From: Azolla caroliniana | Taxonomy: Eukaryota > Plantae > Polypodiophyta | Direction: 5' to 3' | Assembly (NCBI GenBank): GCA_043228905.1 | Contig: JBHGNT010000013.1 | Coordinates: 18,538,001 to 18,602,000, forward strand | Length of the DNA stretch: 64,000 bases | Part shown: positions 15 through 57,639 of the stretch, piece after piece | Numbering within the stretch: position 1 is the first letter of the stretch | How the letters are laid out: each line of letters starts with the position of its first letter | Program-made: the position numbers and the translations under genes | The notes under the pieces: model-generated | Database searches by the model: none | What the model was told of the DNA's origin: nothing | Seen by the model: the letters and a program-made list of their open reading frames with translations, nothing else

Positions 15-43
15 AAAAATATGTACCATTTCTCGATTTGTGC
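15..43 (-). pseudogene. 3'-terminal fragment of U6 snRNA
   Basis: Reverse complement GCACAAATCGAGAAATGGTACATATTTTT matches the plant U6 3' end (…CAAATCGAGAAATGGTCCAAATTTT) and the U6 copy at 56070-56173. Confidence 0.65.
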
Positions 44-164
44 ATTTTAGAGGCAGGGATATATTTTTAGTGTCAATGGAAGACCAATTGGCAATCTATG
101 AGAGAGGGGCTGGCCCATGGCAAGGATCGAACTTCAGATCTCACAAATTTATGACCTTGGTCAT

Positions 165-9800: not shown

Positions 9801-12800
9801 CCAAGTGCTTATTTGTGATGGTGTTAAGCCCATAAGCTAATCTTTTGTTCCATGATAGTGCTATATAAGTTGGCCATAATCAAGCTAACCATGACAGTTC
9901 AATATCTGGATACCAAATTTTTATACCGTCCTTTATGGATTGGTTTAATCCAATTCATGAGCCAATCTTTCAGAAAAGCCTTGCTCGATAACTGCTATCC
10001 ATTGACGAGTTTGTCGTCTTGTCCATTTCAAGATCTCGATTGGTATTAAAGTTGCATCCACTGCTTTGCTATTAGCCATCCTTTTGCTCTTTTATCACCA
10101 ACTTCAATAGACACACATGCATTATATGGTGTTTCCATACTCAATGTCATAGGCATATCCCAACATGCATATAAAGCATATGTACATATTGTTATTGTTC
10201 CATCTCTTCTTTGTGAATCTGCCCATTGTATTTTCTTTATTTCACTTGAGTTGTCTCCATGTTAGGTTGGATTGGAGTTTAACAGTTTTGTTTCCTCCTT
10301 TTTTTTATTTGATAATATTGCCTCTTTCTCATCGCCAATATTCAATATGGATACAATGATAGGGATTTTTCATTTTTATATTTTGTGAACTTCAACATTT
10401 TGAGATGAGCCTTGAACTCTTGATCAAAACAAGATTTACATGGGAAACTAAGCGTTTGATATCCACCCACATGTGCACCAAAATATCAATGCCGTATCTT
10501 GAGAATGACATCCTTCAATTTCTTCCAATTGTTTTCACATCTTTCATAGGAGAGAAGTTTGGGACATAACTCTCAATCTCATTTGCAAATAAACTAACTT
10601 TATGATAGCAAGGTGTATTAATGTACCACTTTTCCTTTTGTACTTTAATGTATTGGTCAATGGCAGACATAAAATTGAGGGTGAAAAGCCCACTGCACCG
10701 AAGGATCTAACCTACAGATCCTGTAACTCAGTAGATTGTTTTTACATAATTGAGGTAAGTATGGGAGAACATCATATCTTTCTTTTGGGGATAGCTCATC
10801 ATTTATCCAACTTGACCATTGTTGGTAGGATAAAATAATTTCCCAAACCTCAGAATTCCAAACGATTCAATTAGGATCCATTATGCAAAGATTTGAGTTC
10901 ATTGCTTTTACAAACCATCCACTGCTGAAATTGCAGTCCTTGTGGTAGCCTCATCAATGTTACCGACTGAGTAAGATGCTTGTTCAGGAAGATTTTCTGT
11001 TTCTCCAAAAACAATCACCTGAAATCATTTGATTGTTTCTTGTAGACTAACATATATATATGGAGAACCAGTAAAGATTTCTGCTACAAAGAAGGGTTAC
11101 AATAAGAAACATTCTATCTTTCAAGTTCTAGCTATATATTGTAATTTGTTTCTTCAAAAGATCTCAAACATTGATATATCAAGAATGGAGAGGCCTCTGA
11201 AGAAGAAAGAAAGAAAGAAAGAAAGAAATATTAACGTCCTTTAAGAGGCCAAAATGGCCTATAAGACCAAATAAGAGATTACATCTTAAGTGTTGTCTCG
11301 TCTTTGAGAACAAATCAAAATAAAATAAATATCACACAATAAATATAAAAGTAAATAGCATGAAAAGAAAAGAAAAGAGGAAATCTGGTTTTTGGCACAT
11401 ATGAGATCCTCAAGTTAGGTATATTGTAGCTTTTGTCTTCGAAAGATCTCTAGCATAGGTCGATCCAGAATGGAAATGTCTCCGAAGCGAGGGAAGCACC
11501 TACGATGGCGGGAGATACTGGCTTTTATCTGTCGATGACAAGGGTTGTGGTCCATGGGGCCGGGGCCTACGTGCATGGCAAATTGCCATTGCCCGATCAA
11601 TTGTAACCCCTTTGTTATATCCTGGTCTGGATCCCATTTCTGTATCATGGGGTTGACTTCTAGCATTAGGAGTGATGGGGCTAAAGAAAGTTGTGATTGT
11701 TCTTTGTGGATGAGCTTGTGTGGCTGTATTCTTCAACAACTTTTCCCGATGTCTCTTGAGCTCTAGCAAGAAAAGTCCTAGGCATCGTTGGTCCTCATAT
11801 TCCATTACCTTGCGTAGTGGGCCAAAGCCTTGTTTAAAGAGGCAATGGTATCTCCCTCTGATTTCATAAAAGACACTACAATGACAAACATAGTGTTCTT
11901 CAGATTCCACTCCTTGATGACACAATTGGCAAATTCTCTCTTCTAGAGGTAGTCGTGTATATCTGCCTACCTCAATTTGTAGCTGATGTGATGAAGTTCG
12001 TAGCTGCCCTATCACACTACGCAACGCATAGGATAGATGTATGTCCATATAAGGTGGTCTGATGACAAATCCATCCTCCGATGTATGTAAGAAGTGTGTC
12101 TTATAGTGGGCCATCTTTGTACCAAGTGGTATTTTGGGGCTGATCCATGTTATCTTGTTTTCCAAGTTAATAATATCAGTTCGGATCACTCTATTCTTTT
12201 CCACATTGGTCATATTGAGATGGGGACAGTCCAAGCTATATTGGAACAGGGGCAGTGCATTTATACTCATGCCATGTGACTCAAACCCTTGCTGCATTTC
12301 AGCATACCAACAATGAGTGTCTCCATTTTCAGCCAGTTGTCTTGATGACATAAGTGCCAACCTTGGGTACCTTCGTTTAGGGAGCTCCCAAAGATGTTGG
12401 ATAAATGTCACTAATCAGAACAATGCCTCAGTTATTATAGGTGCTGCTCCCATCTTTGCCCGGATTATATCGTGGGGCACTGATGCTTTGCTCCTTATCA
12501 TGCGAGCAATCATTGACACTAAAGGTCTCTCTAAATCTTTCCAATGATTTGCCTTGTTAAGACTCGGTCCCCATGTCTCTACTCCATAGAGAAGAGTTGG
12601 TGTGACAAGCGTATCAAATAACCATAGCTTAGTCCGTGGGTCTTGGAATTGCAAATGTGCACATTGTCTCTTGAGAGCACCAAAGGCTGCATATCCACGA
12701 GAAAGTCAGGCACAAGCGGCCTCCTGTAAGGAGAACCTACGTCCTGTAAATGTTACTCCTAGGTATGTGTAGGAGCGTGTGTATTCCACCTTTTCCTCTC

Positions 12801-15800
12801 CCAAGAAGAATTCTGGTTCTGATCTTGTTACCCATGCTTGAGTGGTGTTAAACACCATCACTTTAGTTTTATTCATGTTGATTGACAAACCTTTGTCCGT
12901 ACAAAATAGTTTTAAGGCATTTAGATGTCTTTGTAGTTCCTCTGGAGAGTCAGAAATCAGCACAATATTATCAGCATATAGTAATATCTGTATAGCTATA
13001 CCTGCTAGGTGTGCTCCAGAACCACCAAATCTTGCTATGTATTGTGATACTTCATCTATATAGAGACCGAAGAGTGTAGGGGATAGTGGGCATCCTTGCT
13101 TCGCGCCAATTGTGCTAGCCACCACCTCTGACAAGCCCTTAGGAGACCGAACTTTTCCTGACACCAAAGGCTTCTAGCCGCTGCATAAGCCAAGCACGTG
13201 GCACAGTGTCAAAGGCTTTTCGGAAATCCACAAAGCAGCAATAAATCCTCTTATTGTGGGCTCTGCCCTCCTCAATAAGGGCCCGGAGGGTGAATATGTG
13301 ATCCAAGGTTGCGAACCCCTTCCGAAATCCTGCCTGTCCAATTGAATGACAGCCATTTTGCTCTGCCCATATACTCAATTCTGATTCTAGAATCGAGCCA
13401 TATAGTTTAGCCAAGTAATGGCCAATCATGATTGTCCTATAGTTGCTTGGCATCATGGGGTCTCCACTCTTGAGGATTGGCACAATGGTATGCTGAGTCC
13501 ATCTAGTAGGAAAACCTTCACACATGGCTCTATTGAAGCTGTGTGCTAGCAATGGGAGGATGGTGTCACGGGCATAGATTGGCACAATGGTATGCTGAGT
13601 CCATCTAGTAGGAAAACCTTCACACATGGCTCTATTGAAGATGTGTGCTAGCAATGGGAGGATGGTGTCACGGGCATAGATAAAGTGTTCACCCACCAAT
13701 CTATCATGATCTTGGGCCTTCCCAAATTGTAGCCGATCAATGGCATTTCTTACATTTTGTGGTGTAAAGAAGGTTGATTCATGTGGGCGTGAGGCATTCG
13801 GGTGGGGAAGAGGAGGTTGCCCCGGGATATCATATAGGACCTTTGCATATTCATGCCACACCTGAGGTCAGGTCAGTTGTGTGGTGGGTGGCCTCTCATT
13901 AAACATTTTCCATGCTCTTTTACTCTCTCGTCCTAGAAACAAGCGATACAAATGATCTTCAAATTTAGCCAAACACAATCTCTTCTTCTTCCTTACGAGG
14001 CGTTGGAAGGTTGCTCTCGCTTGGTTGTGTGTATAAATGCTCCGAGTTACATCACGCTGCAAGCATCTCCTTGTATCACGACATTCCTTATCATACCAAC
14101 TATTTTGTATTACTCTACCGAGTTTGGGGGGATTGGCCGTTGTGTGAGGGAAGGCATTTGTGGCTGCTTTATGCAATGATTTGGATAAACCTTGGGTAAG
14201 TTCTTCAAGGGGTGAGAAAGGATCCAAATCTAGCATGCCATTGTATACACCACAACTATAGACATCAATTGTCTCGCGAGTGAATAGATACTTAGTCAGC
14301 CCACTCTCCTTAGCATATACATCCTTTGTGCATCCATCCTTTACCTCAAAGTGTAGATATGCATGATCAGCTGCCAAGGCAATAGGTCTTCCCGATATAG
14401 TGAACACTTTTATTTCAGGTATAAGAGATGGAGGTCCCATTAGATAATCGACTGTGCTTGCACCCCCTTTTGGGTGCCAACATGTCAAAGCATCTGATCC
14501 AGGCCATTGAGTCAAGCCATTATATATCACAAATCCATGCGCACTTCCCAAGGCTAGAAAGTGTTTTCCATATTCAGTTATAGCACTCATATCTTGAGCT
14601 TTTCTCTTTAGACCAACCTCTTCCGCCATAACTTCTCCATAAACAGCCTCGTTGGTGTTAAATATAGTTGTTTGTTCATCCTTGGTTCGTGCATTAAAAT
14701 CTCCTAATAGTATTATGTCCCCCATAACTTATGATATCATCATATAGTGGTAGATATGGTGATTCACCTAGAGGTGAAAACCTTGAGTAGGCAAGTGGAA
14801 AGTAGCAATTTGCAATATATAGCTCCCTAAGATCCCCTCTTTTTATGCGTATCCACATGTAGCGTGCATCCACATCCTTATGGACAACATGCACTCTACC
14901 ATGGAGCTCCTCTTTGTATAGCATAACCACTCCTCCCGAACCTCTAGTGCTTCCTCGTATCCGAGGTCGGGGGCGACATATTGACTCCCATCTATATCCT
15001 TGTACCTCGGGGAGTTTGCTAGCCATGCATTGGTGAGTCTCTGTATACATAGCAATATCTGTGTTTTTCAATGTATCTTCAAAATATCCGACATCTGTCC
15101 GTAGAGAGCCGTTGCAATTCCATATGGTCATGCGTAGCGTCTCATAGGCCATATATCGTCATGCGGTTCTCTTCTCTGTAATAATAACCTTGCCGTCTCT
15201 ATATACGGCCCATTTACCTTCCTTTCTTGCATCAAGCACTCGTGGCATGTTTTATTTGCGGTTTGCCACTTGGGCTGGAGTGAGATTGTCGTCTAAGTAT
15301 ATCTTTTCACCCTTGAGTGCCTTTCTTTTAGAGAGGAAAGCTTTTTTCTTGTCAATATCCATGATGCGGATGATAAGGGCTTTAGCTTTAGACTCATCTC
15401 TTCCCACCCTCCACGTTGAAGCAAATGGAATATCTGATGCTCCAATCTTTGTTCCGAGATTCTTGGCATCTTCTTGTGGACTTTGCAACGCACGAGCTTT
15501 CCTCTTGGCTGCTTCTTCTAAAGTAGCATTCATCATTGCCATCCTATCCATGGATGTTCCTTTTTGCTTTTCTTACTACCTCTATCCAAGGAGCATTTGC
15601 TTTAATTTCATTTTGGGCATGCTCAGCTTGAGCTTTGGCATCTTTGGCCATGTTTGCATTTCCTTCGTGACATTGGCTTTCACTGTAGAGATGCATCTTT
15701 TCACTGCTTCTTGTCCTTTTTCGAAATCCACTTTTATAGCTCCTAACTCAACCTTACTTGAGGATATTTCATCCTTAAGGTATTGTGTCATGTCATCCTT

Positions 15801-18087
15801 GAGCTCTAAGCGTGATTTTTCCACATGGCTTATTATGTCTTTCCGCATCTCTTCTAATAACTCAGCCTTGAGAGAGGCATACAATTTTGATTTTTGTTTC
15901 TCTATCTCTTTTTTCATTTCTTCTTTTAGTGCTATTTCGATATCTTCTCTAATAAGATTGATCTCTTGCGCAATCAAATGGCGTAAAAAATTATGTTTCC
16001 CATTTTCGACATCAAATGGAATGTCAGATGGGGCCTGCGTTCATGGTGCCTTGTGCGCCCTTCTGACGCTATTCAGGGTGCTTCCATCCCGTCCTTTTCG
16101 TCTATGATATCTTCTTGTGGTCTTCAATGGGTCTGGACCCTCGTCATGCGTGTTAAGATCCATCTTTTCAGTGTCTGTCCCTTCAGACTCCATGGTGTCT
16201 TAGGACAGCAGGTATAGGAGATGTTGAGGGCAGAAAGAACAATATAGACTCTAGAAATTTTTACTGGGCAGAAAGCATAGAGGAACAAATTTGGCAGAAG
16301 ATACAAGAAATCAGATTTGGAAGAAAACGCACAGGATCAGGCATTGCAGAAAACACAGAGGACAGACATTTCAGAAAAGACAGACAGAGCCAAAACCCTA
16401 AACGCACACCAGAGAAAGGAAAAGGTTGAGATAGCGTTAGAGACAAGGGGTGAAACAGTGAAGAGAAGTTCTGAGTTAGCCCGTGTAAGTAAGACAGAGA
16501 GAAGACGTGAAGACAACAAGGGTAGGCACAGTTTTCTGGAACTTGCCCAAACCCTAGAAGTGATTTCAGACACCAATCTGTTGCATATACAACAAAACAG
16601 GTTTAGTCGTTTCATATATTGTTGTGAGATTCATACTGCTGTGATACTCTCTGAGACTAGAGCCTTTCATCCAAAAAGGTGAAAGCTCTGTAATCTGTTT
16701 GTTTTGTAATTACGTGGTTGGGATCCCATTTATGTGGCCCTTGATTGAGTTGTACCATGAGTAAGAGTGATGGGGCTAAAGAAAGTTGTGATTGTTCTTT
16801 GTTGAGGAGTTTGTATGGCTGTATTGTTGTGCTTCTGTGTCTCTCAAGCTCTAGCAAGAAAAGCCCCAATCATTATTGGGCCAAAGCCTTATTTCATAAA
16901 AAACAGTACAATGACAAACTTTATGTTCTTCAGAGAAAGAAAAAAAGAAAGAAGGATATATTAACATCTTTTAGGAGGCCAACATGGCCTATAAGACCAA
17001 ACAAGAGTCTGCATCTTAAAATGTTATATTGTCATTCAACAACAGACCAAAGTAAATGAACTAAACGAAAAAGTAAATAGAAAGAAACTAAGACGTGATT
17101 AAGAATTACTTCATGTATACCATGTAAAATTCGGAATGTTGAGATTTGACTAAATATCTCTAGCATAGATCAGTCCAGAATAAAGAGGGCTCCAAAGCGA
17201 TGAAGCACCTGCGATGGTGGAATATAATGGCCTATCTGTCAATGACAAGGGTGATAAAGTCTTGGTCCACAAGGCCAAGGCCTACGTGCACGACAAATTG
17301 CCATTGCCTGATCTATTGTAACCCCTTTGCAATGTCCTGGCCAGGAGGCCATTTGTGTAGCACTTGATTGACTCGTAGCATAAGGATGATGGGGCTAAAG
17401 AGAATTGTGATTGTTGATTAGCTTGTGTGGTGGTATTGTTGTCCTTCAACAACTTCTCAATGTGTCTCTTGAGTTCTACCAAGAAGAGCCCCAAGCACCG
17501 TTGGTTCAAAGCTTTTCTTCAAGAGACAATGCTATCTCCAAAACAGTACAATCGCAAACATAGTGTTTATCAGATTCCACTCCCTGATGACACAATTGGC
17601 AAATTCTTTCTTCTAGAGGTATTCGTGCATATCTGCCTACCTTAATCTCTTACTGATGTGAAGAAGTTTGCAGCTGTCCTATCATACTGCACAGTGCACA
17701 GGATAGTAGATGTATGTTGATATATAAGGGCCCAATGATCAATCCATCCTCCTATGTGTGTAAAAAGTTTGTCTTATAGCAAACCATCTTCCTACCTAGA
17801 GATGTAGGGCTGATGCATGCTATTTCAGAGGAAAGAAAGAGATATATATTTACGTCTTTTTATTGTTTCTCTGCAGGTATTTGTACTATTTTGAACATGG
17901 CAATCAACATATAACAAGCGGTGTCATCCAGGGTCTTATTGAACTAATTATGACTGAAATACAAAGTGAACATGTTACCCAGGATTCACTAGTGGATACT
18001 TTCTTGGCTAATACGTTAAGATATGTTAGGTTTCAGAAACAGAAAGGGGATGATATGGCAGAGCGATATGCTGCTATCGAAGTGTAA
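881..18087 (+). CDS. VPS35: Vacuolar protein sorting-associated protein 35 (retromer cargo-recognition subunit), about 22 exons
   Basis: Exon 1 881-991 reads [37 protein letters not shown]. Exon 2 from 3433 reads [32 protein letters not shown]. Later exons carry [67 protein letters not shown] and [20 protein letters not shown]. Penultimate exon ends at 7851; last exon 17877-18087 (YLYYFEHGN...RYAAIEV*). GT-AG borders read by eye. Confidence 0.97.
8250..10900 (-). mobile_element. Old, heavily degenerate LINE (RT-region relic) in the VPS35 last intron
   Basis: Minus-strand fragments such as [29 protein letters not shown] and a DVVFIVK (ADD-like) segment, with many stops. 8480-8632 is similar to 57850-57985. 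Confidence 0.7.
11500..15152 (-). pseudogene. LINE ORF2 (AP endonuclease, reverse transcriptase, Cys/His finger), broken into 6 ORF pieces
   Basis: ORFs 14694-15152, 13868-14725, 13139-13861, 12706-13167, 12415-12654 and 11500-12411 are collinear parts of one polyprotein. Confidence 0.92.
13475..13681. repeat. 102-bp tandem duplication inside LINE ORF2
   Basis: 13475-13576 and 13577-13678 differ at one base; duplicates 34 aa ([13 protein letters not shown][I/S][20 protein letters not shown]). Confidence 0.95.
15159..16193 (-). pseudogene. LINE ORF1 (coiled-coil nucleic-acid chaperone), disrupted
   Basis: ATG 16193 ([12 protein letters not shown]…) is in frame with ORF 15582-15977 across one TGA. 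It continues after frameshifts into 15252-15551 and …[17 protein letters not shown], ending 6 nt before the ORF2 ATG. Confidence 0.75.
16715..17860 (-). mobile_element. Cluster of older 5'-truncated 3' fragments of the same RTE-X-like LINE family
   Basis: 16715-16925 and 16933-17825 match 11210-12150 (GATGGGGCTAAAG, AGGCCAACATGGCCTATAAGACC hairpin, GAAAGAAA tail). A very short terminal remnant is at 17830-17860. Confidence 0.88.
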
Positions 18088-22491: not shown

Positions 22492-24476
22492 CTAGCCAGT
22501 TTGAAAAATGAATATTCATTCTTTCAATAAATCAAAAAGAAACAAGATTAAACATACAAACAAGATTAAACATACCTTCTAGAGACTCGGCTAAACTGTC
22601 GAAATTGTTTGAGATGAAGTCATGCAACTCTTCACCAGCCCATGACGGAAAAACAAAGATATTGACACTCACACCAATGGCTGCCCCTAACAGAATAATG
22701 AGGAACCTATTGATGGCAATGTTCACAGGGTCACCTTGTCGATACTCGGCGACAATGATAATGCTAAAAGTGATGAGGAAAGTCCTCAACCCAAACTCAT
22801 ATGACTTCATGCTTTCGGAAAGTTTTGCAAACGTAACCACGCCACCTGTATGTGAATTCAGTTCAGCACATCTTCCTATATGTGTGTTTGTGCGCATGTG
22901 AATAAAGAGAAATATATATATATATATAAACATCTTTTAAGACCAAACAAGAGATTACATCTTAGGATGTTGTCTCGTCTTTGAGAACAATAAACCAAAA
23001 TATATGTAACCAACTAAAAATGTAAATAGAAATAGAATGAGACGTGACTAAAGAATCTCCTCATCTAGAGAGAGAGAGAGATTTGGAAAGAGACTCATAA
23101 TAAGCCTGCTCATAATACACCTTCTGATGGCCAATATATATATTTATATGATTGTTGTGATGTGTTATATATGTGTATGTATGTAAGCCATGAAAAACAA
23201 GCATACGTTTCACATTATAACACATTATTACTAATATCGATATAATGCATTCACACATATATGCATTAAGCTATACAGATATGAAAATAGCATAAGAAAA
23301 TGTGGAAAAGATCTTGCATCATGTATAGCTACATATGAGAATTGTATGTGATTGTACGTATATAGTTCGCAATACATGCATATACGACACTTATCTGCAT
23401 CATATATGCATGTCATACAGTTTCCAATGACATGATTGATAGATGTGTAAATGCGTGAATCATTATGCATAATGTATATATATGTAGGTTGTGATGCATA
23501 CACATTATATCCACCACATGTGATATTATATTGAACATATGCCTCACTGGATAAATTGAATATATGTATCCCCCACGTTTTATTAGGCTGACACACTACG
23601 TATCTAAAACATACGTATGTGTCCAATGCCTAAAACACATTATATATCAATCCACCATCAGGGAAAATAATATAATGTGTAAAAGTACATAGATTACGTT
23701 GTGCAAACATCTTAATGCATAGATATGTAATTATAAGCCATGATGCATGCAGTATAATTAAATCTTTGCATATGCAATATAATGTATTATCCGCAACACA
23801 TGATTGAATAGGCTTATATTGCATATGTAAAGATATATATAAATTTTAGTTGTATGGCCATTTACGATGGGATTGATGCAAAACTTGGAAGAATATTGTT
23901 AATTTCCATACCTATGACAAATGTGCTCACACCAACAATGATCGGATGAAAGATACCCCCAGACATGTGAGCCAGTTGGGCGATCACTACTGCAAGAAGC
24001 CCAGCCAACAGAGTTCCAGTGCCTCTATTGCAACCCTTGCTCAATGTAGCACCTAGTTGTTTTGTATTTTGGTTTTGGTTTTTATTGAAACACAATATTA
24101 CTAAAAGCTTATTACCGTCTTTCATAAAATAGAAGATATGCATATGTATATACATGTACACATACACATATAGATTGAAAGAATTTATTCAAAATGAAGA
24201 CATACCAATAGTGAATTCAAAGACGACAATGACAGTCATGATGGCCCAGATGACATGGGTGCCGAAAATCAAGTATGGTGCATCGAGAAGAACCAACAAG
24301 AGAACTAAAGTGAGTGCGAGGGCCATCTTCAAAGCGTGTATAGACTTTGAGAGATCCTGTCTAAAACTACTGGCAAAGGAAGAAAAGCATGCTGTCAAAG
24401 CATAGATACCAAATTTCTGTCCACATGTGGTCCTTTTAGAAGGACCCATTAAAGGAGAAGAGTTTTGATCATCCAT
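20784..24476 (-). CDS. ALMT: Aluminium-activated malate transporter (ALMT) family anion channel, at least 6 exons
   Basis: HALKMALALTLV…WAIMTVIVVFEFTIG|ATLSKGCNRGTGTLLAG, YEFGLRTFLITF…RFLIILLG…VFPSWAGEELH, YKGYRLALVSASKEES, FASWEPPHGRF…YPWHQYVKVG (WEP motif), SALSLGTFATLLVE…LVDAVVELSELARFK. True start uncertain. Confidence 0.93.
22434..22487. repeat. (TA)n microsatellite
   Basis: Uninterrupted TA run in an ALMT intron. Confidence 0.95.
22905..23065 (-). mobile_element. 3'-end fragment of the RTE-X-like LINE in an ALMT intron
   Basis: TAAGACCAAACAAGAGATTACATCTTAGGATGTTGTCTCGTCTTTGAGAAC matches 11262-11311. Confidence 0.85.
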
Positions 24477-24556: not shown

Positions 24557-25137
24557 CTTATATGTATATGCAAGTATCAATGTATGTACATGGTATAACT
24601 CCTATATGTACGTGGAATCAGGATTTCTGTTGCATCTAACTAGGTTCTGTGAATCTGTTCCTCTGATTCTTCATTCTGAAAGCATGAATCATACAGGGAG
24701 CAGTCTGTTTGCCTGTCTCTGCTACGTTGAGTTCCATATTGGGTGTATGCGTGCGTGCGTAAATGATAATGTTTTTTGTCTTCTCGTTAAATCTCTCTCT
24801 GTCTCTCTGCTTCTTTTTTTAAAGTTTCAATTCCTAGAAACGCTGCTGCTGCTTTTTTGCTTTTTGCGTTTTTGTGGGTTTAGTAGGTGTTAGGAAGAGG
24901 AGGAAGAAGTAGTAAAGTAGGACAGATTGAGAGAAAGAAAGAAAGAAAGAAATTAACGTCTTTTAAGAGAGAGAGAGAGAGAGAGTACTTTTGTGCCGGG
25001 CCCGCGGACTCTATGGCTCACTACCCTTGTGTCGTGGAAGATGTGGCCGCATTGTGGCCTTTGACTCTGGACAAACACCACACTAAATGTCCGGGCAAAT
25101 GTGAGCCTTGCATGACACACACAAGCAGCATTGGGGC

Positions 25138-31115: not shown

Positions 31116-34100
31116 GTGGGATCTATCTATTAGGAACCATCAATCTAGAGGTCAGAATGTATTGAGAATTAATGCTTGTTAAGTAGGGTAGAACTCATGA
31201 GAGACGAAGAGCGAGTTTAGTAAGTGAACCCTTTCAAGTTTAACTAAGGTAACTTCTATTGAATTTATCATTTTCAATCTCACGTTCTAGAATAAGTTTC
31301 ACTTATTTTTACCAAAACTATTTACAAGGAAAACCCTCTCTCTCTCTCTCTCTCTCTCTCTCAACAATCTATGTGACCTCAAAATCTTACATGTATAAAT
31401 AATGAGATTCTTTAGTCACTTTTTTATTTACTTTTTATATAGTTATATTTATTTACGTTTGTTGTTTTCAAAGAGTAGACAAACACTTGAGGATGTACCT
31501 TTGGGCATCATAAAAGACGTTAATATCTATTTATTTATTTTCTCTTTTGAGGCAATGTTGAAATTAACCCATACGTCTTCATCCAAATCTCATTAAATTC
31601 AACTACGTAATTGTTGGATGATAAACGAGATGCCCTCATCTCTAGCTACCAACAGATTTCAAGTTCACTATAATGTTCTTTCCTAGGGAACCCAATTTTG
31701 AACCGTTGTGAATCCATGACAATGACACATGCAGTGTTGGCCATTACAATTATTAGAGAGAAGGGTTCATTGCTACACAATAATTGGTAGAATTCCATGA
31801 TTGTTTTGTCTTAATAGCTTCTCATGAAGCTACAAAAGAAGTCCAAAGTCATCGCTCAATATTCTAATCAAGTAACCTTTTTTGCTGTTCACGATATATC
31901 TTTGAGATTTGTACATGGATAGCATAAGACAAATGTAAAGATAATAACAAATTTTTTCCATGCCCATAAGCATGGTCAAAGTTCTATGGTAATTTTGTTG
32001 TAGGTTGGGTAGAATTGAGGTTACAAAAACCTTAAGCTTTCAAGGTTTTGATCGGTAGACCAATTTGGGTAATCGCAATTAACTTATGTAAGTGTATAGA
32101 GAGTACTATGATGAGTGGCATCTTAGAAAATTTGTTTCCCAACAAACTTCGTTCTCTCTATTTCTTGGTTGTCACGGGGACAAAGTATAGTAGCTACTAG
32201 GCATTCTCTAACTAAAAAACAAATGTTTTATTTTCTTTGTTCGAATATTGTTTATAAATATCCATGTAATGATTTCAATGTATGATATGTGTTCTTGCAT
32301 TAACGAGGCCTAATAAACATTTTTCAATATAGTGTATATTTTACACATCCACAATCGTAACTTGAACATGTGTCATATCAAATCCAAGTTTTGGTAGGGT
32401 ACTTGTAATTCAAGGATATGATCATTAAGGAAGTTTTAAATAATTTGCTAGAAAAGTTGCATTCTAGCTTTAAAGATTTTAGAAACAAATGGCCTACATA
32501 GCTTTAGCATACAAGATCCAAATATTTAGTAAGACCATCTTTGGAAACCATCCATCAAGAGTTGTCCAATTATATCGGTGACATGATGGGGTTTTGAAAA
32601 TCTTTCGGACGGGCTAATCGTGCCACTCATTTTAATTTGGATATCCCCAAAATGACACTTTCCCAAATGATCTAAACCAATCTTTATTGGAAAAATTAAA
32701 CGTGTGCATAATATCTATACAATTTTTTTAAACCATTAATAAGTAAGATGATACTTGGAATTTACTTGTCAAGCATCATTGACTTGTGAGATGTTACATG
32801 AAGGGTTTTGGTGAATTCTTCATTGAGCCCCATTTCGAATTGGAGTTTCAAAGAATGTGAAACTTTTTTGGATTTCATATTCCTAATCCGTAGTTTTAAC
32901 CTCCACCATATCATGAATTGCTAGTATAATGCTTTCATATAGGTTTATGGAGGTGAGGCAAGGTTAAATTGTCATAGTCGAATTATTTATTTTGCTTAGA
33001 TATGTTAATGGCCTTATAACCACTATGACTAACTTCAATAAATCATACATATAGAATCATGGATAAAGTATAGGAATTTATAAAAGCTCCCTCTACCTTT
33101 TCATCATCAAAATATTGACTCTATGTTGATAAGTACATAGTTAAATAGTTATAAGTTGTCCCTACAGGGATTTGTACATAATTGTCTCATTTGTAAAATT
33201 TTATAACTAATGGAAGGAGTTTTTTTTTGGGAAAAGAAGAAGAAGAAGTTATAAGTTACGACTCACGAGAATGTATACCTCGTTTTAGAAAAAAGTAGAA
33301 AAATATGTTTGTTAACTGATGTAAATTTCAAGTTTACCTTGCACACAACCTATATAACATTTGATCAGATAGAACAAAATGAAGACTACATTTCCAGTGA
33401 GAGAACAAAAAAACAACGAAGATGTTCCACGAAGAGCCTTGCATGTAGTCGATCACCTTGTTAAACTATGCCATAAAATATATATGCTCTTATAAAGAAG
33501 AAATAACATGGGTAAATTGTACAAGTTTGTTAATTGTAAGTATCGATAATGTATCTCATTGTCTATAGCATTGCAATGATGTTGAGTAAAGTGTTAGTTT
33601 ATAAAACAACTAACTATTTCCTCCCTTAAATCGAGATGCTTACATATTCTCCGAATCCAATGTGAAGTAGCAAGTCAATGAGATTGGTTTGTTGTTACAC
33701 AAGTGGAAGACCAAATATTAATATACCTATACTTATCATTATATATGTGATTAATTTAGAAGTTTACGGTAAAGTTTATCACCAAATATTTGCTTCTTTG
33801 TTGACATTCTTGAGGCTCCTTGTCTTTGTATCATAAACTTTCAAACTAAAGAGGTTGTGCCTGATAACTAGCATTTGGAGAAATAGAAGTAGCCTAACCA
33901 ATTGCACAAATATCATTTCTATTTTACAATGAACTCTAATTGATTGACAATTGGAAAGGTTTTATATGATTAATTATACATTTTTACATATTCTTCCATG
34001 AACAACAAGTGAGCATTTAATGCTAATTACTATGCATGTCGACAATTAGTACATATGAAAATATCTAAAGTTCCCTAAGCTATCTAAACTTGCTTAAAAT

Positions 34101-38637: not shown

Positions 38638-38710
38638 TTCCATTGTCGGGAGTTGAACCCGAGTCTCTTGGGTGAGAGCCCAGTATCCTAACCAACAATA
38701 CTACAATGGA
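38638..38710 (-). tRNA. tRNA-Glu(CTC) pseudogene
   Basis: TCCATTGTAGTATTGTTGGTTAGGATACTGGGCTCTCACCCAAGAGACTCGGGTTCAACTCCCGACAATGGAA matches plant cytosolic tRNA-Glu(CUC), with mostly CpG-type transitions. Confidence 0.85.
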
Positions 38711-38713
38711 AAA

Positions 38714-38785
38714 CACCAATGTCGGGGATCAAACCCAGGTCACCCGCATGACAAGCGGGAATACTCACCACTATACTACAACAAC
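38714..38785 (-). tRNA. tRNA-Asp(GTC) pseudogene
   Basis: GTTGTTGTAGTATAGTGGTGAGTATTCCCGCTTGTCATGCGGGTGACCTGGGTTTGATCCCCGACATTGGTG matches plant tRNA-Asp(GUC). The B box is mutated from GTTCGA to GTTTGA. Confidence 0.87.
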
Positions 38786-46200: not shown

Positions 46201-49200
46201 GTGGTTAGGTTTGGGCTTGAGCTTGCTTAATCAGTTTGAATGCTTGGTCGGTTTGGCTTGAGGCATGCTTAACCAGCTCAAACCAGTCAAGCCATTTATA
46301 TACTATTCAATAGCACGCGCCTGAGAGAGAGAGAGACTAAATGGATGTAGCTCAGTTGGTAAGTTTGCCCAATGGAGACCAGGAGGTAATGAATCAACCC
46401 CCTACATTCCAGTGGCATCTAGTAAATTAAGAGATATGTCTGGAGTAATAGAGAAGTGAGAAATTGGGCGTCGAACCCAAGACATAAGTGCTAATAGTGT
46501 AACAACTTACCACTAGGGTAAGCTAATTACGAGGGAGAGAAAGAGAGAGGTTGTCCATTGGAGACCAGAGGTCATGGGTTCGACCCCCTATATTCCACCA
46601 GCTAAGTACAATAAGAGGAAAATAAATAATAAAGATAATCACCACTAGGGTAAGCTAATCACAATAAGAAAGAAATAAAGATAATGACATTTTTTGACAG
46701 AGAGAAAAGAGAGAAAAATAAAGATGTCACATCACTAGTCTTAAGCTGGTTAAGCTGAAACTGAACCATTGCTGATTCCTAATTGTCTCTTTGAAATAAA
46801 GCTTTGATGCACTCCAGAAGGTTATGGAATACAAATACTATCTATGCTTGGGACTATCCTTAATTGAAATTAAGAGTCATACAGGGACCTCATTAGTAAT
46901 GAACCATCACACCCTTCTTCAACACTATCATACCTCCTTGTCATGCTACAAGTTAATTAACGGTTACACATGTAGGCTCTTGACCATACCATTTGAAAGG
47001 GGTCACGTCATATCAAGTAATAACAATATTTCATGCACATAGAGAACCTTGGCCCTACCACCCTTGGAATGTATTTACAGCAATCCTTTGAGTAATGAAG
47101 AAGATCATTTCATTGTTTTGTGGATTAATAACTGCATCAATCTGAAGTAGCAAGAGCCACATGTGTAAGGATCTTTTGTAATATCTTTCAAAAAGAGACT
47201 TAAGTTTGAACTTTAAACCATCTCCCACTAAATGACTGTGAGGAGTAGGTCATGGTGCCAGCTAACTTATTGCTACTTGGAAGTGAGAGATCTATCATAT
47301 AGTCCATATAGCATCAAGACTCAATAGGCAAATTTCTCTCCATAAGAACTTTCACACAAGGATGCAGAAAATTCCATAAACCTTGCTTGAGGGATTCTCT
47401 GACCTCAGGCCACGTCACACCCAACTACATTTGGGATAATGACAAACGCAGTACTTGATTCACAAGCTGAGTATGACAAGTGTGCATAAGCTTGGCAGTG
47501 AAGTCCAAACGCACACACATGTCAGTCTAGATGATTTTGTGGCAAGCCTTGTCCTGTCTTGTTCACAACCCTAATATTCGTCTAGTCTTCTCAATCGATC
47601 TTTAATTGCGTGAATGGTAGGTATGCTGATATTGATGCGATGCATTTGATTGGGTATTTATCAGAACAAACACTTTTGTCAGCTTCTCCCTTTGGACGAG
47701 GGACCTACCTACCACATTTTCTGGTCTAATTATTCTTCATGCTCATGGGCAATACCTAGGAATTCTAACATTAACATGCTTTTACCCCATGTTGATAACG
47801 AATAACGTAATAAGAGGATGTTCATTTTTGTAGGAGTAAATGATGTTTGGAAAATCAACTTTTTATAATAAGGTGTAATGGTAAATCATGCTGCTAGTTT
47901 TTATTCAATTTTCTTATGAATGACAATCATCTTGTTGAACTGTTCTGAAATCTGTTTGCGGGATCGAAGTGCCAGGTTTTATTACATGTCTCAGTTAAAT
48001 GAAACTCAATACTGACGTAATATTCCAGGTTAAGAAGTTTTGGGCTGAAAAGGGCATATCAGGATTTACAGTGTTCAAATTTAGTCTACATCGGATGGAA
48101 GGGCAGCCTATGCTCACAACAGAGCAAGTTAGTACACTCTGCAGCCATCACAGACCTCACTGTATTTATGCAGTGTTTATATTCTATAAAAGTTACATTT
48201 CTTTTTGTTATGCAGGTTCACTTTATTTCTGGTCAAGTTCCATCAAACCCTTCTGAATTAAAAGGGTACGAATGCATAGCCACTTTAGCTGATTCTGTTG
48301 ATGTATTTTGTTTGACTAGCTAATAACCATTCCTTGCTCTAATTGATCCAGTTTTTTGTGTACGTGATTTCATTTGTATGTTACAACTGAAATTGCTGTC
48401 TCATCTATGAGAAAAATGGAAGATATTGTACACGAAAGTGCTTAAAATAAAAGCCCTTAAAGTGAGTTGCTCTATGATACTGAAACTTGCATCTTGTAAA
48501 GAAATAGATCATGGTCCGGTCCAGGATGGAGAAATAATGAAAGTGAAGGAAGTTCCTCTATATGCGATGATGCTGAAATATTGTTACTTAGGTCATCATA
48601 TTTATCCTCTTTAAATCAAGCCACTAGTTGTAACCGTTGTTTCCTGGATAGAAATGATCCCTTAATTTGGAGGTTGATATTAAGTTTAAAGACACATTCT
48701 AACTCAAAGTTTGAATGTACTGCCCTTTTTATTTTTAATGTGTTTTCCTTGAGTTGCAGGCTTGTATGTGCTGATATAAGCAATGGTTTAGAGGAGATTC
48801 CAGTGCCAGCTTCTAATGTTGTTGATCCTATACCTTCTAGACCTGGTAAAGTTCACTTTTCCATGTTGTGTTCTTTAATGAAATGTTATATAAAGCATGT
48901 GGAAGATACAGGCTAGCAATGAGTGCCATTTTTTGTTTTCTCTTTGGAGATGAACATCCTATGCTGGAACAAAATGATGGAGAGAAATTATTTTTTATTG
49001 TTTGAATCCTCCTTTTTTATTACATGCTCTGAATATTTATGCAATGGAGACTTCTGTTTTTCAGAGTTAAGATACTTAGCTGTAAATGAAGTATCAAAGG
49101 AGGTACCAGCACCAGTCCCTTCAAAAGGATGCAGCTGCAAGGGAGAGTGCTATGATGTAACAAAGTGTTCTTGTGCCAAACTGAATGGGAAAAAGTTCCC

Positions 49201-55444: not shown

Positions 55445-55486
<42 letters not shown>

Positions 55487-55487
55487 A

Positions 55488-55887
55488 TATGGATGTAGCT
55501 CAGTTGGTAAGGTTGCCCAATGGAGATCAGGTGGTTGTGGGTTCAACCCCTACATTCCACAGTGGCATCTAGTGAATTAAGAGATATATAAGAAGTATAT
55601 AATAGAGAGGTGAGGAAGTTGGGTTTTGCACCCAGAACACAATGCTTGTAGTGCTAACAACTTACCACTAGGGTAAGGTAATTACGATAAAAGAGAGAGA
55701 TTCTACTTCTGGTTGTGGGTTCAACCGCTACATTCCACAGTGGCATCTAGTGAATTAAGAGATATATAAGTAGTATATAATAGAGAGGTGAGGAAGTTGG
55801 ATTTTGAACCCAGAACGCAATGCTTGTAGTGCTAACAACTTACCACTAGGGTAAGGTAATTACGATAAAAGAGAGAGATTCTACTTC
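55488..55887 (+). mobile_element. tRNA-derived double-headed element with a 178-bp tandem duplication, between (GA)n tracts
   Basis: A box TAGCTCAGTTGG, B box GGTTCAACCCC; reverse-strand TAGTGGTAAG…GGTTCAAAATCC. 55532-55709 is repeated at 55710-55887. (GA)n at 55446-55483. Confidence 0.82.
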
Positions 55888-56069
55888 ATCTTCAGAGGTC
55901 AAACATGACTTGTGAGACCAAAAATATTACATTTCACGTGATACCTTTGAAAGTGAGTAGTGAATCTTGATGTTCAAGAACTTTACCGATGAATGTTGTA
56001 ATTGAGAATACACATTATGGTTGTGAGAGAAATTCGTGGAAGGATTGGGCTTGGTTAGAGAGAGAGAGA

Positions 56070-56173
56070 GTTCCTTCGGGGACATTTGATAAAATTGGAA
56101 CGATACAAAGAAGATTAGCATAGCCCCTACGCAAGGATGACACACACAAATCGAGAAATTGTCCAATTTTTTT
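56070..56173 (+). pseudogene. Full-length U6 snRNA copy, probably non-functional
   Basis: GTTCCTTCGGGGACATTTGATAAAATTGGAACGATACAAAGAAGATTAGCATAGCCCCTACGCAAGGATGACACACACAAATCGAGAAATTGTCCAATTTTTTT. The ACAGAGA box is mutated to ACAAAGA. Upstream is (AG)n, not USE/TATA. Confidence 0.93.
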
Positions 56174-56232
56174 ACTTGGGCCAGAACAATATTGGGATGG
56201 TTGACCTCCCGGGAAGTCTTGGTGTTGCACCC
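56174..56232 (+). pseudogene. 3' half of 5S rRNA fused directly to U6
   Basis: CTTGGGCCAGAACAATATTGGGATGGTTGACCTCCCGGGAAGTCTTGGTGTTGCACCC-TTT matches plant 5S nt ~60-119, including the mature 3' end and the C-box region. Confidence 0.88.

Positions 56233-56236
<4 letters not shown>

Positions 56237-56292
<56 letters not shown>
56237..56292. repeat. (AG)n microsatellite
   Basis: Perfect AG run. Similar runs at 24966-24986, 31336-31362 (TC), 38789-38806, 39399-39436, 40027-40049 and 55446-55483. Confidence 0.95.
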
Positions 56293-56870: not shown

Positions 56871-57639
56871 AATGTGAAGGTGTGTAGCAACTCTTGATGT
56901 TCAAGAACTTTACTAATAAACGTTGCAATTGGGGGTGCATGTAATGAATGTGAGAGAAATTTGTGCAAGGATGTGGGGAAAGCATAGTCAAATATGATCA
57001 AAGGCAAAGAACACTATCAAATTCTGATACTCAGAATCCTAGACTTGTTTACAATGAAGTGTGTACAATTGACTACTCTCATTGCTTGTGCCCCAATGTC
57101 TTGTCTCACATAGCATAGCGGGAGAGATGTAAATTTATGAACTAAATCATGATTACAAATATGGTTTACATGAAGGCATGTGTGCTAAAATAAAATGAAA
57201 AGCTTCATGAAAATGACCAATTAGTAATTAGAATGATTATTAAATTCGTTTTATAAGCATGAAATGCAAGCTATGATGTATAGAATGAGTGATGGTGATG
57301 GAACATGATATCAGATGTTGACTTGTGAAAGTGGGGTGAGGTTATGATGAAGGTCATATCAAGTGCATCAAGGTGGCATCTATGGGATGGGCATGGCCAA
57401 CAATGGTATTCAAGAATTGGTGTTGGTATGGTTCATGTGCCTCATATATTCTTGATAGTCACATCCTGCATTGTCCATTGTCATCAACATTCCTTTGTTC
57501 ATTCAACAATGGAGGTCTGGGCCTTTGGAGGAAGTCCATGATGAGTGTTTGCCTCTATAGTAAGGTGTTAATTTAAGGGTTTATTCTTCAACGCATGAGT
57601 TGAACTAGTGTAGGAGATAATTGGATTACAAGAGCAAGA

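What the first reader, a model, noticed from the sequence alone, without database searches (positions are those of the whole stretch)
56057..56292. U6 snRNA-5S rRNA chimeric copy embedded in an (AG)n microsatellite
Seen: a complete U6 (from +1 G to its T7 tail) joined with at most 1 nt spacer to the 3' half of 5S rRNA (ending at the mature CACCC-TTT), with (AG)n on both sides and no U6 USE/TATA upstream. Established: full-length U6 fused to a 5'-truncated partner RNA is the architecture of mammalian U6/L1 chimeric retrocopies, attributed to LINE template switching or to ligation of the U6 2',3'-cyclic phosphate. Inference: this is a retroposed fusion of two Pol III RNAs, or a U6-headed, 5S-tailed SINE-like family; I do not know of one described in plants. 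Changes are mostly C>T/G>A, consistent with methylation decay.
Basis: partly seen in the sequence, partly recalled or inferred. Interest (0 to 1): 0.8.

Follow-up and report, generated by a model that had tools for sequence, protein, structure and literature searches.

The report
One-off U6–5S fused retrocopy in fern
A full copy of the U6 spliceosomal RNA is joined directly to the back half of 5S ribosomal RNA inside an AG repeat of a plant genome (likely a fern), likely a dead, one-off product of a retrotransposon's copying enzyme, a kind of accident known from animals and fungi and not a new spreading element.

Summary
U6 is full length at 56070-56173 (Rfam 100.5 bits). It is joined with no spacer to 5S positions 60-119 plus two T (42 bits, E=4e-12), between (AG)7 and (AG)28. 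Both outer ends match RNA ends: no U6 promoter upstream, no 5S spacer downstream. The halves are about equally decayed (8/102 and 6/59), mostly C>T/G>A. The junction is in contigs of two runs from separate studies, once in each (1 of 37, 1 of 59), and in neither of two further organisms: real, with no sign of an amplified family, and not Cassandra. Best reading: a dead chimeric retrocopy made in one event (0.8), a template jump somewhat likelier than RNA ligation. U6 heads on a shared LINE-like 3' end occur in other plant contigs (4 distinct loci among 125) and perhaps at this window's start. I found no U6-5S or plant U6 chimera in ten literature searches; this scan has noted similar U6/U2-5S one-offs in other genomes. 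The odd points are the lack of any LINE or poly(A) tail and the AG-repeat site.

The parts
56057..56070 (+). (AG)7, left part of the microsatellite target; its last G is also U6 +1
56070..56173 (+). Full-length decayed U6 snRNA copy with T7 tail (56167-56173), no upstream promoter, G>A change in the ACAGAGA box
   Evidence: Rfam 100.5 bits; 93/102 to the plant majority and USE test; TATA test; the box name is recalled
56174..56235 (+). 3' half of 5S rRNA, positions 60-119 plus two T, ending three T into the terminator run; no 5S spacer follows
   Evidence: other 5S contigs of the same runs continue past 56235 with TT and spacer (table 7)
56236..56236 (+). One extra A between the 5S end and the AG run (untemplated base or remnant of a short A tail; inferred)
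56237..56292 (+). (AG)28, right part of the microsatellite target

Best explanation
This is a full U6 copy joined directly to the 3' half of 5S rRNA inside an AG repeat, likely a dead single-copy retrocopy made in one event when a LINE-type reverse transcriptase likely jumped from one RNA to the other. Inferred steps: (1) a LINE endonuclease or a break opens the (AG)n tract; (2) the (CT)n strand primes cDNA synthesis on the 3' end of a 5S RNA (ending CCC-UUU, perhaps with one or two added A); (3) synthesis reaches 5S position 60, the end of a cleaved 5S or a stall; (4) the enzyme jumps to the U tail of U6 and copies it to +1; (5) the cDNA is sealed at the G that U6 +1 shares with the repeat; (6) the copy has no promoter and decays, mainly by C>T/G>A change. 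Shown: the anatomy, the missing promoter, the decay pattern, the junction in two runs. The shared core (one RNA-derived insertion, however joined) I put at 0.8; the jump at about 60:40 over ligation.
For: Both outer ends coincide with RNA ends: U6 starts at +1 with no USE or TATA, and 5S stops inside its T run whereas other 5S contigs of the same runs go on into spacer (table 7). Direct, same-sense join with 0-1 base of overlap. Equal decay of the halves, 8/102 and 6/59, Fisher p=0.77 (raw counts 9/102 and 10/59, p=0.14). Changes in U6 fall at 5 of 18 CG/CHG sites, 2 of 29 CHH and 2 of 55 A/T. The layout matches three of the five listed features of chimeric retrogenes (PMC2104539). U6 chimeras are reported with L1, L2 and RTE-type LINEs (PMC4476161). 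U6 heads joined at different points to one LINE-like 3' end with a (TAAG)n tail occur in other plant contigs: L005, L085, L087, L067=L100; the three with a full U6 head lack a TATA-like word. This window holds an RT-encoding LINE (RVT_1) and a second U6 3' piece at 45-16 on the minus strand (15.5 bits against at most 7.2 in 20 shuffles) whose next 13 bases match that LINE's 3' end with 2-3 mismatches.
Against: No LINE 3' end and no poly(A) tail, so nothing shows how the RNA was recruited or names the enzyme. A target-site duplication cannot be read inside (AG)n, and none lies outside it. The window's LINE has the opposite polarity: its tail is (TTCT)n and its short copies follow (CT)n on their sense strand, while this insert has (AG)n on its sense strand. 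The LINE match of the second U6 piece rests on 13 bases, and an unrelated site (8293) matches as well. Ligation gives the same product (PMC6789731). One 5S contig in run X3 (record 19) differs from the insert at only 2 of 61 places and does not cover the U6 side, so the donor may have been a variant 5S copy and not the mature rRNA. The empty site was not seen.
Confidence: 0.5

Rival explanations
1. Same dead retrocopy, but the RNAs were ligated first: U6 with a 2',3'-cyclic phosphate was joined to a 5'-OH fragment of 5S by an RNA ligase, and the fused RNA was then reverse transcribed in trans.
For: Shown for human U6 with L1 and other RNAs through RtcB (PMC6789731). Plant tRNA ligase repairs breaks with the same two end types (PMC3964908). 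Full-length U6, clean join, no overlap needed.
Against: The T run is 7 (6 if one A mutated), at or above the 4-6 T of human ligation products. The enzyme shown to do it, RtcB, is ascribed to metazoans, archaea and bacteria; I did not test whether ferns have it. No RNA evidence was obtained.
Confidence: 0.3
2. DNA-level joining: a U6 copy and a 5S 3'-half were brought together by two successive insertions or by a rearrangement in the AG tract.
For: 5S 3'-halves exist as DNA: short tandem units that restart at about 56184-56195 in runs X3 and X8 (tables 5 and 5c). The X3 contig with only 2 differences (record 19). Microsatellites are repeated landing sites in this window.
Against: Those 3'-halves start 10-21 bases further in and carry spacer; the insert carries no spacer and no U6 flank. 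No AG or other bases lie between the two parts. Equal decay. No 5S in 125 U6 loci and no U6 in 28 5S loci.
Confidence: 0.1
3. A member of a U6-headed, 5S-tailed SINE-like family, comparable to crocodilian SINEU.
For: SINEU shows that snRNA heads without an internal promoter can amplify (PMC4494074). Contigs collapse repeats and a filter leaves some records out unseen, so copies could be missed; no whole genome was available.
Against: 1 of 37 contigs (X2, depth 9.8) and 1 of 59 (X3, depth 4.6) cover the U6 side, at depths like or below other low-depth contigs of those runs (8-21 in the listed pieces); 0 of 35 and 0 of 9 in two further organisms; no U6-like loose end among those shown (24 not shown). 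No hit for the junction pattern in metagenome contigs or in this scan's index. The T7 run would stop Pol III before 5S (established knowledge).
Confidence: 0.06
4. The 5S part is a Cassandra LTR fragment, or the junction is an assembly artefact.
For: Cassandra occurs in ferns and carries 5S-like sequence (bioRxiv 2023.07.14.548913). Only 28 bases of the U6 side were laid on contigs.
Against: Cassandra's 5S region covers A box, IE and C box in mid-LTR and never lies at the LTR end; this piece starts at position 60, runs to the mature 3' end and has no LTR flank or partner (only one significant 5S hit in the window). The junction is in one contig in each of two runs from different studies and organisms, with 3 and 1 differences.
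Confidence: 0.02

Closest known systems
U6/L1 chimeric retrocopies and other chimeric retrogenes of mammals and Magnaporthe (PMC2104539 abstract and background read; PMC6789731 passages and section 18; PMC11838501 passages)
   Same: Full-length U6 ending in a T run, joined directly and in the same sense to a 5'-truncated second RNA; unique junction; no further spread.
   Different: The 3' partner is 5S rRNA, with no LINE sequence and no poly(A). In the human 5S/L1 chimeras of PMC11838501 5S is the non-LINE part, 3'-truncated and often antisense; here it is the 3' partner, sense and 5'-truncated. Host is a seedless plant; the site is (AG)n.
U6-L2, U6-RTEX and U6-SINE chimeras of platypus and Anolis (PMC4476161 passages and section 10)
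   Same: U6 heads formed with non-L1 LINEs whose insertion starts from a simple repeat, with short or no target duplication; the L005-type loci and the piece at window 45-16 look like these.
   Different: That section reports that such stringent LINEs make chimeras only with their own or their SINE's 3' end; this insert has neither.
SINEU and SINE3 (PMC4494074 passages)
   Same: Short retroposed unit with an snRNA-derived head; 5S-derived sequence.
   Different: Those are multi-copy families; SINEU heads are U1 or U2 and SINE3 has 5S as head with its promoter. Here one copy is seen, U6 is the head and 5S is cut at position 60.
Cassandra TRIM (bioRxiv 10.1101/2023.07.14.548913 passages)
   Same: 5S-derived sequence outside the 5S arrays of a plant; present in ferns.
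   Different: No LTR, no full A box-IE-C box core, and the piece runs to the mature 5S 3' end.

Membership tests
Chimeric retrogenes (U6/LINE type) | 5' part is a full-length copy of a cellular RNA | tested here: met
   U6 model 1-105 of 105; feature list from PMC2104539
Chimeric retrogenes (U6/LINE type) | 3' part is a 5'-truncated copy of another RNA | tested here: met
   5S positions 60-119
Chimeric retrogenes (U6/LINE type) | Parts joined directly in the same orientation | tested here: met
Chimeric retrogenes (U6/LINE type) | Flanked by short direct repeats | tested here: inconclusive
   (AG)n on both sides could be a duplication or a split repeat; no other duplication at the ends
Chimeric retrogenes (U6/LINE type) | Truncation points vary between copies | not testable with these tools
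   only one copy seen; no genome held
U6/L1 chimera in the strict sense | 3' part is a LINE 3' end with its tail | tested here: not met
   3' part is 5S, followed by one A and (AG)28; self-comparison shows no match of it to the window's LINE
SINE (SINEU, SINE3) | Many dispersed copies with one fixed structure | tested here: not met
   1 of 37, 1 of 59, 0 of 35 and 0 of 9 contigs cover the U6 side; contigs collapse repeats and are filtered, so not final
SINE (SINE3) | Intact internal Pol III promoter in the head | tested here: not met
   snRNA genes have no internal promoter (PMC4494074); 5S is cut at position 60, inside the A box (box position recalled)
Cassandra TRIM | 5S core with A box, IE and C box in the middle of paired LTRs, never at LTR ends | tested here: not met
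   for the definition; single significant 5S hit, no LTR flanks
Working U6 gene | Upstream USE and TATA box; intact conserved core | tested here: not met
   USE 5 mismatches against 2 or fewer in 74 of 89 controls; TATA-like word absent against 83 of 89; changes at positions invariant in 95 of 95 loci

The most novel reading that the evidence does not exclude
This fern lineage has a reverse-transcription route that primes at (AG)n/(CT)n repeats directly on the U-ending 3' ends of Pol III RNAs, with no LINE tail or poly(A), and so routinely deposits Pol III RNAs and fusions of them into microsatellites. The U6-5S insert, the tRNA-Asp-TTT-tRNA-Glu pair and the tRNA-headed repeat, whose four heads all start within 6 bases of such a run, would be products of it. 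Seedless plants would then offer a large natural set of U6 chimeras for telling template jumping from ligation in a lineage that uses a different RNA ligase.
Probability: 0.25. Interest if true: 0.55.

Novelty: new variant of a known kind. Interest (0 to 1): 0.3.

Why it matters
By itself it is a dead fossil of about 165 bases with no likely function. It extends U6-headed chimeric retrocopies, described in vertebrates, to a seedless plant, and shows a partner (5S rRNA) with neither a LINE tail nor poly(A), which the standard model does not explain well. The human ligation route uses RtcB, and plants use another tRNA ligase (PMC3964908), so a census of plant U6 chimeras could bear on the open question of ligation versus template switching. 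One copy does not decide it.

Tried and rejected
No whole genome was held, so copy number rests on run contigs. Rfam on the whole window and on 1.2 kb missed the 5S half; only the truncated-end search found it. The junction pattern found nothing in metagenome contigs; the 5S motif found nothing in viral contigs. Runs X8 and X10 have no contig on the U6 side, which is no proof of absence. Four of 24 listed runs were laid, and only on the junction and the 5S part: the 5' part of U6 and the left flank were not checked against reads, and no RNA run was laid; the five RNA-labelled holders had only 0.04 of the words. The junction region folds no better than shuffles (z=+0.84), so no new joint structure is suggested. 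The Atlas search did not give the LINE's clade. The ALMT-like query gave no organism names. A key early paper on chimeric retrogenes (Buzdin 2003, recalled) is not held. No supplements were read; the chimera catalogue in the supplement of PMC11838501 could bear on novelty. I rejected Cassandra, a working U6 gene and a natural U6-5S gene linkage (no complete 5S, no spacer, no promoter).

Full report
Observation. The sequence at 56057-56292 reads (AG)7, U6, the 3' half of 5S, one A, (AG)28. Rfam places a full-length U6 at 56070-56172 (100.5 bits, E=6.5e-25); the T7 run ends at 56173. Rfam missed the 5S half in the whole window and in 1.2 kb and found it only when the stretch began at the junction (model 61-120, 21.4 bits, E=0.0072). 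To test it properly I fetched 28 loci with a plant-type 5S motif (6 of 6 checked were full Rfam 5S genes). A profile of the 18 distinct full genes finds 5S positions 60-118 at 56174-56232, 42.0 bits, E=3.6e-12 over the whole window, against at most 7.8 bits in 20 shuffles. The A at 56174 aligns with G60, so there is probably no spacer, and the overlap between the parts is 0-1 base.

Host. A VPS35 exon of the window is 85% identical to Adiantum and Marchantia proteins, 80% to Ceratopteris and 72-75% to seed plants; unnamed proteins reach 88-94%. The host is a seedless plant, likely a fern; earlier notes of this scan on the same genome say the same. No whole genome is held.

Ends and decay. I fetched 125 plant U6 loci, 95 with a full-length U6. 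The window's copy matches their majority at 93 of 102 positions; 7 of the 9 changes are C>T or G>A, one of them a natural variant (25 of 95), and one hits the ACAGAGA box (name recalled) at a position invariant in 95 of 95. Changes fall at 5 of 18 CG/CHG sites, 2 of 29 CHH sites and 2 of 55 A/T sites. Upstream, the best USE match has 5 mismatches in 10, against 2 or fewer in 74 of 89 controls (11 had 3 and 4 had 5), and there is no TATA-like word at -36..-21, against 83 of 89 controls; both motifs are recalled. The 5S part differs from the majority of 31 rows at 10 of 59 positions; 4 of these are shared with one divergent row (L152) and are probably lineage differences, and 4 of the other 6 are C>T or G>A. 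The halves are equally decayed (8/102 and 6/59, p=0.77; raw 9/102 and 10/59, p=0.14), as expected of one insertion. In the laid runs, other 5S contigs align from 56174-56176 to 56235, continue upstream with the 5' half of 5S and downstream with TT and spacer (table 7). The insert stops three T into that run. Both outer ends are therefore RNA ends.

Reality and copy number. Of 24 listed runs I laid four on 56146-56242. In X2 (organism A) one 264-base contig covers the whole stretch with 3 differences; in X3 (organism B, another study) one 103-base contig covers 56146-56231 with 1 difference. Each has 28 laid bases on the U6 side plus 17 that run past the stretch. They are the only contigs on the U6 side: 1 of 37 (depth 9.8) and 1 of 59 (depth 4.6), while summed depth on the 5S part reaches tens of thousands. 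X8 (0 of 35) and X10 (0 of 9) have none, which is no proof of absence. No U6-like loose end is among those shown (24 not shown). Contigs collapse repeats, depth is not a copy number and a filter drops some records, so this is strong but not final evidence for a single locus. The 5' part of U6 and the left flank were not checked against reads. The junction pattern is absent from metagenome contigs, and no 5S lies in the 125 U6 loci.

Context. U6 chimeras are not rare in plant DNA. L005, L085, L087 and L067 (=L100) carry U6 joined at different points to one 3' end with a (TAAG)n tail; L042 (=L045) has a U6 3' piece on a similar end. The three with a full head lack a TATA-like word. That this end belongs to a LINE is inferred from the tail and from a motif shared with the 3' end of the LINE in this window, which encodes a reverse transcriptase (RVT_1; clade not determined). 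The window has a second U6 3' piece at 45-16 on the minus strand (15.5 bits against at most 7.2 in 20 shuffles); its next 13 bases match the LINE's 3' end at three places with 2-3 mismatches, but also an unrelated site with 2, and the window ends there. Four Pol III-type heads in the window (U6, two tRNA-like repeats, tRNA-Asp) start within 6 bases of one of 12 AG/CT runs of 14 or more bases; chance is about 0.002 per head, a post hoc figure. A fifth, 5'-truncated copy of the tRNA-like repeat near 200-340 has no such run. Against this LINE as the agent: its tail is (TTCT)n and its short copies follow (CT)n on the sense strand, the opposite polarity to the U6-5S insert.

Mechanism. Most likely one target-primed event: the (CT)n strand primed cDNA on the 3' end of a 5S RNA, synthesis ran to position 60, the enzyme jumped to the U6 U tail and copied to +1, and the product was sealed at the G shared with the repeat. 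All of these steps are inferred. The alternative, ligation of U6 to a 5S fragment before copying, is shown for human U6 through RtcB (PMC6789731; passages and section 18) and is chemically open to the plant tRNA ligase (PMC3964908; passages). The T7 run is at or above the 4-6 T of human ligation products, a slight point for the jump. I put the single RNA-derived event at 0.8, split about 60:40 for the jump. DNA-level joining (0.1) has some footing: tandem 5S 3'-halves exist in X3 and X8, and one X3 contig is within 2 of 61 bases of the insert's 5S part; but those halves start 10-21 bases further in and carry spacer. A SINE-like family (0.06) and Cassandra or artefact (0.02) fail their tests. 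The joint region has no unusual fold (z=+0.84).

Comparison. It works like the chimeric retrogenes of mammals and Magnaporthe and meets three of their five listed features, with one inconclusive and one untestable (PMC2104539; abstract and background). It is not a U6/L1 chimera in the strict sense, having no LINE part. In human 5S/L1 chimeras 5S is 3'-truncated and often antisense (PMC11838501; passages), unlike here. U6 chimeras with L2 and RTE-type LINEs are known in platypus and lizard, always with the LINE or SINE end (PMC4476161; passages and section 10). The word 'plant' does not occur in the main text of those three papers. Ten searches (listings only, except for the papers named) showed no U6-5S chimera and no plant U6 chimera; the library lacks most subscription papers, one early key paper is not held and no supplements were read. 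This scan has noted a U6-5S-SINE-tail and a U2-5S-retrotransposon one-off in other genomes (not checked by me).

Verdict. Real, correctly described, most likely a dead single copy of a known kind of accident, with an unusual partner, host and site. New variant of a known kind; interest 0.3.

Noticed in passing
window 16-45, minus strand: A second U6 piece (3' 29-30 bases ending in T5; 15.5 bits against at most 7.2 in shuffles). The 13-14 bases after it resemble the 3' end of the window's LINE, so it may be a U6/LINE chimera cut by the window start.
   Followed up: partly
L005, L085, L087, L067 (=L100), L042 (=L045): U6 copies in unnamed plant contigs joined at different points to one LINE-like 3' end with a (TAAG)n tail (L042 to a similar end); L067 holds the junction twice in tandem. 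They look like plant U6/LINE chimeras, which I did not find in print.
   Followed up: partly
window 55484-55700, 46337-46549, with partial copies at 55710-55887 and about 200-340: A repeat of about 215 bases with a tRNA-like head and, by eye, a second tRNA-like piece in reverse orientation; both full copies start right after an AG run and end in (AG)4, the same polarity as the U6-5S insert.
   Followed up: partly
window 38638-38785, minus strand: Decayed tRNA-Asp joined by TTT to decayed tRNA-Glu, 3 bases after (TC)9; either a decayed tandem gene pair or a second fusion of two Pol III RNAs.
   Followed up: no
window 11204-16100 (minus), fragments near 16930, 22900-23067, 24929-24965, 31396-31547, 43480: A broken LINE with a (TTCT)n tail; two short 5'-truncated copies directly follow (CT)n on their sense strand and a third lies about 35 bases after one.
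   Followed up: partly
runs X3 and X8, laid on window 56184-56235: Contigs in which the 3' part of 5S repeats in tandem after only 11-36 bases of spacer.
   Followed up: no
L126-L153: 28 contigs in bacterial genome records, 27 of them under 700 bases, carry plant-type 5S rRNA genes, apparently contamination.
   Followed up: no
window 55948-56049 and 56875-56977: The left flank of the insert has a 79% identical copy 0.9 kb downstream; that copy does not continue into an AG run, so it is not an empty site.
   Followed up: partly
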